Origin: Gekko japonicus
Lineage: Eukaryota
DNA: 64,000 nucleotides
Assembly (NCBI RefSeq): GCF_001447785.1
Contig: NW_015160215.1
Location: 983,616 to 1,047,615 of the forward strand
Reading direction: 5' to 3'
Under the pieces are notes generated by a model. That model saw only the letters and a list, made by a program, of their open reading frames with translations, ran no database searches and was not told the DNA's origin. The position numbers and the translations under genes are program-made. Below are positions 61,300-64,000 of this stretch, in pieces; positions within the stretch are counted from its first letter, which is position 1, and each line of letters begins with the position of its first letter.

Positions 61300-62669
61300 G
61301 TCAATACAATGATGGATTGTCTGCACAGAGCTTTTCTGTCATCTAATCAAGTGAGGACAAATCAAGGGACATGCATATCTAGACCAGCCATTAGAAGACA
61401 AGTTACAATATAGTTCATTAAAATATGGAAGAGAGGTTTTTTTGTACACCAGAGACAACCTATATATCAGAAAGAAACAGATTGTCACAACAGGATTCTG
61501 AGGGAAACATAGTTTAGAGGATGTTAAACAGACCTGAAGTTTATGATCCAGAAGTGCAACTATGGACATATTCTGTCATACAAGATCTGGTTGTGACTGA
61601 AATGAGAAATCCCAAGTTGCAGAGACTCTCATGGGAGATCTGGATCTCAGTTTAGATAAAGTAGCTGGAATGTACCAGACAGCTGGGATTACCTGTGCCA
61701 GACTGAAAACGAATAAAGGGGAACTTTACACAGAGTGACTAGAATAAAGACAGATTTGAAAGGACAGCAAACAGGAAGCAGTGATTAAGACAAGAGAACA
61801 GGATAGTATACAAGCAGATAACAGCGTAAGGTGTCAGGGTACTGCTCAAGAATTTGCAGACAATGTGCCTACAATGTCCTGCCTTGGGCAAGTGCTACAA
61901 TTCAATTATTTCAATAGGGTCTGCTGCAAACAGACACATACAAATGCAAGAGATATTTCAGACTGTGCTAGCTGGAGAGTAGTAAAGGAAGTCACCATGC
62001 ATGGCAGCAATGTGTGTGTGGCCTGACATGCTCTCTCTTTAAAAAGACCAGGAAGGAAGTGACGAAAACGGTCCAGTCTGTCTACTCTAGGCTGTGCAAG
62101 AGAGGAGCTGGCAAGAGGACAGGGGGACCAGTACTCACAAACTCCCCCCCCCACTGGGTTGTCCAACTGGACTCCCATCCCCTGCTGCTTACTCCCACCA
62201 CTCCACAGTGTGAGTCATGTTGTTACATGATTTTTATATACAATTTATACATCACATGCCAACATAATGCCATGTCTAAGCAAAAGTGAAACTAAGTTAT
62301 CAAGACATCTGGCAACATTCCTAATGTTTAGATACCTGTAATCCCATTCTGTGCAGGCATATACCAATATGTCCATCAAACACTGGCATGTTTTGTTCCA
62401 AGGACCAAGATATAGTTTAACCTGCCCTTGCTAGCATGACATTTCAAGCAGACTCAAAGTATCACATGTATGCTTTCCACTCTTCTAACACTGAGAGCTT
62501 AGCCAAAGAGGTTCCAGTTCACAGCACCGCATCAGGAGAAGTAGAAATACTTAGAAACAATGTCAGAATATCTAATCCCCTTCTATGGAAGAGCAAGGAC
62601 AGAATGGGATTTATCCTTCACTTAAAATACATTCTGGCTTGATGCCTCCTAAAACTGGTTGAAGAAAAT

Positions 62670-63090
62670 TGTCAGCTATGCTGCCATGAAGGTTGGGGAG
62701 GTTGGTCTGTGTCTGGTTAATTGCTATTGCTTTCCTTTCCGGTTAATTGCTACTGCATTCCTTTCTGTGCTGTCTCTGCTGTATGCCGAAATGCTTATCT
62801 ATACAGATGTGCAGGAGGGTGTTGTAGTGTCTGGGATTTCCCTAGGTCCCGTGGGAGAGTGTTCGTTCTCAGCTTCAACTACCTAACGATCTCTAAGCCT
62901 TATTACATGCGTGGGAGGGTGCCTAATTGGCCAGTGCTGGGGGGGGGCATATGAATACCCTATATCCTATTATGCCCATGGGGCTGCCGCCATTCTTAAC
63001 AGTGCCTATGTTACTGCATCTATAGCTCTGCAATAAAAGTATTACCGTTCCTGAATGCGTGTACTTCGTTGTTGGCTGTGGGTTCTGACA
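62670..63090 (+). repeat. Gypsy 5' LTR
   Basis: TGTCAG...CTGACA inverted termini; AATAAA at 63032. Confidence 0.85.
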
Positions 63091-63092
63091 TT

Positions 63093-63103
63093 CTGTTAAG
63101 AAT
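63093..63103 (+). promoter_or_regulatory. Self-priming primer-binding site
   Basis: ctgttaagaat is the exact reverse complement of attcttaacag at 62992-63002 inside the LTR; there is no TGG-starting tRNA PBS. Confidence 0.75.
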
Positions 63104-63875
63104 ACTCCATTCTCTATCTCCGCGCACCTCTCTACAACCGAGATGAGCGACGGAGAGGAGAAACCAATTCCTGAGAATGACGACTCCGGGGGGGGGTCCC
63201 GACTCCTACAACGACTGGTCAGGGGACCCCCACGACCCAGTCGACGGTGCCAGTGACTACCACGCCGCCGGTAACTGCAGCTGACGGAGCCGTTCCTAAG
63301 ACGACATCGACCCTGGTGTTTCTGACCCCGACGGGGCCGAGGCGGCTGCCCGGCCATGGATATCGGCCAAACTCCAGCTGGAGCCAGTTTCACCCAGACT
63401 CTACTGCCGAGACTTATATGCTCATGCAGGGGCCACCGAGAGACAGCCGATTCGACTGGGGGTTTTCTGGGGCCGGGGGGTTCCCCCCCTTTAGGGAACC
63501 ATTCGAGTCTTTACCAGGGGCATGGGTGACAGAGAGGACGAAGGTGAAAAGTGGCCAGGTGTCCCCGGAGGAGGGATTGGAACTAGCCCAGCGGATGGAA
63601 GTGGCAGATCAGGAGAGACGGCAAATGCAGAGGACGCTGGAGGACGTCATCCAGGCGATCCCGCAGCTGGTAATCCAAGCCACCAGAGAGGAGAGGGAGG
63701 CCCGACCGGCGGTCCCCGCAGGGCCGGTTGCCATTTCCTGGGTTCTGCAAACTCTTTGGCTGACGCCTTGTCCCGCGTACCCCAACACAACAGCCAAGAA
63801 GATGTAGTCTTGGACTCAGTGTTCACATCCTCACAGCTGGGCAGGGCAGTGACAACTCGCAGCCAAGCCCGCCTA

Positions 63876-64000
63876 ACTTCTCCTCCCTCTGTGATGTTGC
63901 ACCCGCCTCCTGCCAGGGTGCGGAAGGAGGTAACAGACACTTCTCCTCACTCTGTGATGTTGCACCCGCCTCCTGCTGGGGCAGGGAAGGAGGAAACAGA
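63876..64000 (+). repeat. 63-bp in-frame tandem repeat (at least 2 copies)
   Basis: Units start at 63876 and 63939 and encode TSP(P/H)SVMLHPPPA..(R/G)KE.TD. Confidence 0.9.

What the first reader, a model, noticed from the sequence alone, without database searches (positions are those of the whole stretch)
62960..63110. Gypsy element with a tRNA-independent 11-nt self-priming site
Seen: 2 nt after the LTR end (CTGACA, 63090) there is no TGG-starting tRNA PBS. Instead CTGTTAAGAAT (63093-63103) pairs perfectly, for exactly 11 bp, with ATTCTTAACAG (62992-63002). That site lies in an initiator-like CCATT context, ~30-40 nt after TATA-like sequence and upstream of AATAAA. Known: S. pombe Tf1 primes reverse transcription with the first 11 nt of its own mRNA, and this is proposed for the Tf1/sushi lineage. 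Inference: this squamate family self-primes and its transcript starts at 62992.
Basis: partly seen in the sequence, partly recalled or inferred. Interest (0 to 1): 0.7.

Follow-up and report, generated by a model that had tools for sequence, protein, structure and literature searches.

The report
Self-priming lizard Gypsy retrotransposon family
This dead jumping gene has no tRNA docking site; the 11 bases after its left repeat pair with 11 bases inside that repeat, related families keep the pairing with different letters, and misjoined copies break exactly there, so the family likely starts copying itself with the first bases of its own RNA, a trick known from yeast Tf1 and already proposed for vertebrate relatives.

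Summary
Observation confirmed. The 5' LTR is 62670-63090. The primer-binding site (PBS) CTGTTAAGAAT (63093-63103) is the exact complement of ATTCTTAACAG (62992-63002); 5 of 20,000 shuffles do as well. The copy is an old, internally deleted chromovirus (chromodomain integrase). Pairing is perfect in 21 of 30 close copies. Four sister families in the genome use other primer/PBS words, always 2 nt after the LTR; 5 of 11 pairs change on both sides. In families A-D the primer's first A sits in an initiator, about 31 nt after a TATA-like block (28 of 28 rows). These look like fossils of a cDNA that ends at PBS base 11 and re-primes on its own primer copy. The start site is inferred; RNA-seq could not map it. 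Tf1 and sushi were not in the tree. Self-priming is known for Tf1 and proposed for vertebrate Tf1/sushi elements; this scan also noted it in other genomes. Verdict: new member of a known kind.

The parts
62665..62669 (+). Left target-site duplication AAAAT (right copy AATAT, one mismatch, beyond the window)
   Evidence: two other two-LTR copies have perfect 5-bp duplications
62670..63090 (+). 5' LTR, 421 bp, TGTCAG...CTGACA. The 3' LTR lies beyond the window at G000:C505:1049064-1049492, 93% identical
62961..62965 (+). TATA-like block at -31 from the primer's first base
   Evidence: A/T in 29 of 29 rows at -31 to -28
62990..62996 (+). Initiator-type YYANWYY (CCATTCT); predicted +1 is A62992
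   Evidence: 28 of 28 rows of families A-D; motif definition recalled
62992..63002 (+). Predicted 11-nt self-primer ATTCTTAACAG (predicted RNA 5' end)
63008..63013 (+). ATGTTA, predicted to pair with TGACAT at 63086-63091 (second duplex, beside the PBS)
   Evidence: a 4-6 bp helix between the start of R and the LTR end in all 28 rows, through the TGTT motif in 26
63032..63037 (+). AATAAA polyadenylation signal
   Evidence: AAT-AA conserved across the aligned families
63093..63103 (+). Primer-binding site CTGTTAAGAAT, 2 nt after the LTR
63143..63731 (+). 5' part of gag, out of frame from a G run near 63188-63197 and cut at about 63731 by a deletion of about 2.8 kb (rest of gag, protease, RT, most of RNase H)
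63732..64000 (+). End of RNase H and linker with a 63-bp tandem duplication; integrase, GPY/F-SH3 module, a truncated chromodomain and the PPT follow beyond the window

Best explanation
This is a dead, internally deleted copy of a squamate Ty3/Gypsy chromovirus family whose PBS is the exact complement of an 11-mer in its own LTR, and the family likely primed reverse transcription Tf1-style with that 11-mer as the 5' end of its own RNA. Steps: (1, inferred) RNA polymerase II starts at A62992, 31 nt after the TATA-like block. (2, predicted by folding and supported by covariation) R-U5 folds into a long hairpin that brings bases 1-11 onto the PBS, with a short second duplex beside it. (3, from Tf1 biology, untested here) RNase H cuts after base 11 and RT extends the 11-mer across the TT spacer into U5. 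(4, inferred from misjoined copies) the plus strand copies the primer to its first base and stops, leaving a 3' end that reads CTGTTAAGAAT. In roughly 5-10% of PBS-bearing loci that end re-annealed to a primer copy in U3-R and ran backwards into U3, leaving LTR-TT-PBS-inverted-U3 insertions.
For: Exact 11-bp match; 5 of 20,000 by chance. The minimum-energy fold of 62992-63130 contains the duplex, z -3.96, 0 of 200 shuffles as stable; pair probabilities 0.82-1.0. Five primer/PBS words in one genome: A ATTCTTAACAG, B ATTCTGAACAG, C ATTCCTAACAA, D AGTTCTAACAA, E GTGCTGGCAA (10 bp), each PBS 2 nt after the LTR's CA. 5 of 11 pairs change on both sides and none on one side only; RNAalifold predicts exactly these 11 pairs. 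TATA-like block and initiator in 28 of 28 A-D rows. Junction PBS-to-inverted-U3: 19 exact matches genome-wide, control 0, among 283 LTR-end+PBS sites; 18 of the 19 read, all 18 real. Reciprocal junction: 1 match, control 2, and that match is unrelated DNA. In the first 96 listed PBS loci, 11 leave the element's leader exactly after PBS base 11 (9 fold-backs, 2 others), against 6 flagged as leaving it within the next 100 or so bases. In 10 of 13 loci that keep their own U3, the arm differs from it by 0-2 of 14 bases, against a median of 4-8 for other copies. Family D shows the same join in 11 of 20 loci read, out of 91 with G after the PBS and 857 with the normal C. About half of Tf1 cDNA keeps a single-stranded PBS at its 3' end (PMC11042837, passages). 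Chromodomain over Pfam cut-off in 2 of the 3 integrase C-termini scanned; gag-pol overlap in -1 frame at G GGA AAC/T in 7 of 8 family-A copies scanned.
Against: No mapped 5' end: two RNA-seq lays show no start pile-up at the primer; U3 is covered as deeply as R-U5, so reads are mostly read-through of LTRs and say little. The 28 rows counted were chosen for perfect pairing, so their 100% is by construction, and the 5 double changes are about 5 events, not 39. Nine of 30 close copies are imperfect. A small lineage has a G-to-A change in the PBS with an unchanged LTR primer (4 loci genome-wide, 3 of them close kin), so 11 of 11 is not strictly needed. The third duplex of the Tf1 'pretzel' is weak (66% paired, variable register). 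Family E lacks the initiator at the primer's first base. Similar PBS-to-inverted-element joins were noted by this scan in tRNA-primed families (unchecked notes), so a break at the PBS end is not in itself unique to self-primers. One of 13 arms (L053) is no closer to its own U3 than to other copies.
Confidence: 0.88

Rival explanations
1. The primer is the element's own RNA but not its capped 5' end: it is cut from the same 11-mer in the 3' R region, from a second RNA, or from a transcript that starts upstream, and the inverted-U3 arms are copies of untrimmed primers.
For: Such a primer carries U3 on its 5' side, so copying it gives the same junction. One family-D arm (L174) runs on through U3 into internal sequence. 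Short arms of 9-16 nt could be upstream starts.
Against: Pairing begins exactly at an initiator A about 31 nt after a TATA-like block in four families. Arm lengths are scattered (about 9 to over 320 nt) with no cluster. Five arms stop exactly at LTR base 1 and meet host DNA (L052, L054, L130, L163, L165), as a DNA template that begins at the LTR would give. About 90% of loci continue into normal leader.
Confidence: 0.07
2. A host tRNA fragment or other small RNA primes; the LTR 11-mer only forms a structural hairpin.
For: Half-tRNA priming exists in some Ty1/copia lineages (PMC6317226, passages). Only 60 tRNA calls from 30 of 59 Rfam loci were checked, not the full set.
Against: No TGG at the PBS. 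Best tRNA match 8 of 11; for the four 11-mers no exact 3' match longer than 3 nt. Five different PBS words would need five different RNAs, each mirrored in its own LTR. Misjoined copies show no foreign bases after PBS base 11.
Confidence: 0.03
3. The 11-bp inverted repeat is incidental, and the inverted-U3 loci come from genomic inversions or replication slips at that repeat.
For: Any template switch inside an 11-bp inverted repeat gives the same letters.
Against: An inversion makes both junctions; only one type is found (19 against no true reciprocal). Several arms jump onward into internal element sequence (L055, L161, L177). Fixed position and compensatory changes across families argue against chance.
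Confidence: 0.02

Closest known systems
Tf1/Tf2 of Schizosaccharomyces pombe (also Tj1, Tosmo1-3, Tcry1): self-primed chromoviruses (bioRxiv 10.1101/2022.12.06.519325, PMC4600332, PMC11042837; passages read)
   Same: No tRNA PBS; PBS just after the 5' LTR complementary to the predicted RNA 5' end; an adjoining duplex; chromodomain integrase; signs of a free PBS end on the cDNA.
   Different: Vertebrate host; gag has a CCHC-like knuckle and a -1 gag-pol overlap (fission-yeast elements lack CCHC and do not frameshift); third duplex not clearly present; mechanism shown by experiment in Tf1, only inferred here.
Vertebrate Tf1/sushi group, GyDB V-clade (sushi-ichi, Amn-ichi/ni/san; Butler et al. 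2001 known only through citations; PMC2774666 passages)
   Same: Vertebrate chromovirus with chromodomain, -1 frameshift layout and predicted self-priming; V-clade is reported in amniotes.
   Different: The RT falls in a squamate-only branch apart from the fish, frog and Ustilago rows of my tree; named V-clade references were not available. I found no paper on self-priming in squamate elements or on PBS-to-inverted-U3 by-products.
Integrase-independent Tf1 insertion through single-stranded PBS homology (PMC11042837, passages)
   Same: A cDNA 3' end bearing the PBS anneals to matching sequence. This could explain arms that are a whole U3 ending in host DNA, or that come from another subfamily (L163).
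   Different: In Tf1 the reported targets are PBS look-alikes and pre-existing Tf2 PBS in the same orientation; here the target is the primer copy in U3-R, which gives an inverted join. 'Inverted' and 'hairpin' do not occur in that paper's main text.

Membership tests
Ty3/Gypsy LTR retrotransposon | Paired TG...CA LTRs, 5-bp target duplication, PPT, gag-PR-RT-RH-IN order | tested here: met
   the window copy lacks PR-RT through deletion, the order comes from longer copies
Chromovirus | Chromodomain at the integrase C-terminus | tested here: met
   PF00385 25.7 and 25.3 bits (cut-off 25.1) in L034 and L046; truncated, 18 bits, in the window copy
Tf1/sushi group | PBS not complementary to a tRNA 3' end | tested here: met
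   No TGG; best 8 of 11 among 60 tRNA calls, partial set
Tf1/sushi group | PBS complementary to an LTR segment, kept through compensatory change | tested here: met
Tf1/sushi group | That segment is the transcript's 5' end | tested here: inconclusive
   Promoter geometry fits; RNA-seq gave no start signal
Tf1/sushi group | Three-duplex 'pretzel' around the PBS | tested here: inconclusive
   Central duplex and a 4-6 bp upstream duplex present; downstream duplex 3-8 bp in variable register, 66% paired
Tf1/sushi group (non-fission-yeast members) | CCHC in Gag and -1 gag-pol frameshift | tested here: met
   zf-CCHC 19.6 bits, just under the 20.8 cut-off, in L039; -1 overlap at G GGA AAC/T in 7 of 8 family-A copies, not seen by this scan in families C-E; frameshifting itself untested
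Tf1/sushi group | RT-IN monophyly with Tf1, sushi-ichi, Maggy | tested here: inconclusive
   38-row RT tree (28 of 120 listed homologues plus 10 own copies), midpoint root, no named reference and no outgroup
Tf1/sushi group | RNase H cleavage after the primer and priming from it | not testable with these tools
   Needs biochemistry or cDNA-end sequencing

The most novel reading that the evidence does not exclude
A vertebrate genome holds a fossil record of self-primed reverse transcription: squamate chromoviruses leave a free 11-nt PBS end on the plus strand, which in about 5-10% of PBS-bearing insertions snapped back onto, or annealed to, the primer copy in an LTR and produced inverted-U3 insertions. 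These joins fix the primer's 5' end from DNA alone and give a genome-only test for self-priming in any lineage.
Probability: 0.6. Interest if true: 0.52.

Novelty: new member of a known kind. Interest (0 to 1): 0.4.

Why it matters
In the papers I could read, self-priming is demonstrated for yeast Tf1 and 'implicated' or predicted for fungal, plant and vertebrate relatives. Here a reptile lineage gives two independent kinds of sequence evidence: compensatory changes across five families, and dozens of misjoined copies that break at the primer's first base. This does not change the textbook picture. It firms up the vertebrate case and offers a cheap signature for testing self-priming elsewhere. 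The inverted joins would also form double-stranded RNA when read through, and some are present in RNA-seq reads.

Tried and rejected
RNA-seq for the start site: no listed run holds the stretch as indexed RNA; raw reads of three same-species runs laid on family A and family D gave no start pile-up at the primer and cannot decide. The opposite-strand joints in those reads are not evidence of live priming, because genomic loci carry the same joins (one read joint matches locus L264). The sigma-70 promoter scan is irrelevant to a vertebrate LTR and found nothing. No Tf1 RT appeared among solved structures, so no named Tf1 or sushi sequence could enter the tree. Six of 20 loci fetched around RT hits (L138, L149, L152, L153, L154, L157) gave no usable 5' LTR-PBS (rearranged or N-masked) and were left out of the family comparison. 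Family B has no RT in the tree. The primary Tf1 papers (PMC1369541, PMC109269, PMC230564, PMID 16873283) are not held, and Butler 2001 was not looked up; they and their figures of the 'pretzel' may bear on the third duplex and on whether snap-back products were seen before. No supplements were read. I considered reading the PBS G-to-A lineage as the footprint of a 5'-LTR-only primer mutation (which the Tf1 model predicts) but could not separate it from a mutation in the master copy's PBS.

Full report
Observation. A genome search with 62700-63400 scored 40 of 3,878 candidates and gave 30 loci. In nearly all of them the match begins at 62670. A second LTR lies 2,358 bp downstream, beyond the window, 93% identical. 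So the 5' LTR is 62670-63090, followed by TT and the PBS. Only 5 of 20,000 resampled LTRs held an equally long complement.

The element. The window copy is 3.2 kb. It keeps the start of gag, the end of RNase H, and integrase with a GPY/F-SH3 module and a truncated chromodomain; about 2.8 kb is deleted at about 63731. Longer copies give Gag, RT, integrase and a chromodomain over the Pfam cut-off, with a -1 gag-pol overlap at G GGA AAC/T in 7 of 8 copies scanned. The closest RT relatives are gecko and snake elements (up to 67%), then fish, frog and Ustilago elements, many with chromodomains. In a 38-row RT tree, families A, C and D form one clade (99/98) inside a squamate-only branch (100/100); family E groups with a Podarcis element. 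The tree has no named Tf1 or sushi row and no outgroup.

Conservation in the family. Among the 30 close copies, 21 pair perfectly. Five have a changed primer, one has a T-to-C and three a G-to-A change in the PBS. The LTR-end+PBS word occurs 283 times. I read the first 96 listed: the LTR primer is perfect in 78, one base off in 10, and missing through truncation or deletion in 8. U3 upstream of the primer differs widely between these subfamilies while the 11-mer stays.

Covariation. A sister gag found beside one copy led to family B, with primer ATTCTGAACAG and PBS CTGTTCAGAAT; 22 of the 31 loci with a recognisable PBS (36 read) pair perfectly. Searches with gecko and Podarcis RTs led to 20 more loci, 14 usable: C ATTCCTAACAA (6), D AGTTCTAACAA (6), E GTGCTGGCAA (2; 10 bp, primer 297 nt from the LTR end). 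On 28 rows of A-D, chosen for perfect pairing, 5 of 11 pairs change on both sides and none on one side; 39 cells against 11.9 in shuffles (0 of 500), though the count of such pairs alone is not above shuffles (150 of 500); slid controls fall to about 40% paired. These are about five events, and under self-priming the coupling may come from the PBS being copied off the primer as much as from selection. Either way the duplex is in use.

Promoter geometry. Aligned on the primer's first base, positions -31 to -28 are A or T in 29 of 29 rows, and the initiator pattern YYANWYY (recalled definition) centres on that base in 28 of 28 A-D rows but not in E. This is the usual TATA-to-start spacing (established knowledge). 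RNA-seq could not confirm it: U3 is covered like R-U5 and about ten times deeper than the leader, with no start pile-up at the primer.

RNA structure. The predicted first 139 nt fold into one long hairpin closed by the 11-bp duplex, z -3.96. A second helix joins TGTT(A), a few bases after the primer, to the LTR's last bases; it is 4-6 bp, uses that motif in 26 of 28 rows, and is U-G in A/B where C/D have U-A. The third helix of the Tf1 'pretzel' (described in 10.1101/2022.12.06.519325, passages) is not convincing here.

An opposite-strand joint in the RNA reads led me to search for U3-end + primer + reverse of U5. It occurs 19 times, control 0. All 18 read are LTR end + TT + PBS followed at once by the reverse complement of the U3 bases just before the primer, in many subfamilies, with arms from about 14 nt to the whole U3. 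The reciprocal join gave one unrelated match, control 2. In the 96-locus sample, 9 are fold-backs and 2 more break at the same base, against 6 flagged as breaking over the next 100 or so bases. In 10 of 13 loci that keep their own U3 the arm is within 2 of 14 bases of it. Family D repeats the pattern in 11 of 20 loci read. The simplest reading is that the plus strand ends at PBS base 11 because that is the primer's 5' end, and this end then re-primes on the primer copy, mostly in cis. Arms that are a whole U3 ending in host DNA, or that come from another subfamily (L163), may instead reflect annealing to another LTR, akin to the PBS-directed Tf1 insertions of PMC11042837 (passages). Unchecked notes of this scan report PBS-end joins in tRNA-primed families too; what is specific here is the fixed landing register and the lack of foreign bases.

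tRNA rival. No TGG follows the LTR. Sixty tRNA calls from 30 of 59 Rfam loci match the primers at 8 of 11 at best. The set is partial.

What is known. Self-priming is described as common to the Tf1/sushi group of fungi, vertebrates and non-seed plants (PMC6317226, passages; PMC4600332, passages). Vertebrate chromoviruses form the V-clade, present in amniotes (PMC2774666, passages). PMC3601003 and PMC5371799 (passages) added only background. Seven literature searches (listings and abstract starts) showed no paper on squamate self-priming or on these by-products, but the primary Tf1 papers were not held and Butler 2001 was not read. The scan has noted self-priming layouts in other genomes.

Verdict. 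It works like Tf1 (0.88) and is very likely a V-clade chromovirus, though tree membership and the start site remain untested. It is a new member of a known kind with unusually good fossil evidence. Interest 0.40.

Noticed in passing
L034:1363-2045 (G000:C3942): One family copy carries, inside gag, an uninterrupted host-like reading frame with TIL and VWD domains, resembling a piece of a tectorin or mucin-type mRNA (name recalled). It may be a host transcript captured by template switching.
   Followed up: partly
L268-L271: Four loci genome-wide have PBS CTGTTAAAAAT; three are close kin with an unchanged LTR primer, two sharing a private AATAAACG variant. A lineage spread with a 10 of 11 duplex.
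   Followed up: partly
L052:1414 and L165:1412 (oriented as): In two fold-back loci the R-U5 piece begins 4-5 nt inside the primer, close to where a minus-strand strong-stop would end.
   Followed up: no
G000: Families D and E are much younger than the window's family: dozens of copies score identically against the RT queries and some LTR pairs are 100% identical.
   Followed up: no
window 63876-64000: 63-bp tandem duplication in the RNase H-integrase linker, present in the window copy but not in three longer copies.
   Followed up: no
L166/L167 (G000:C2269): A family-D locus jumps from the last PBS base directly into internal sequence, twice in tandem.
   Followed up: no
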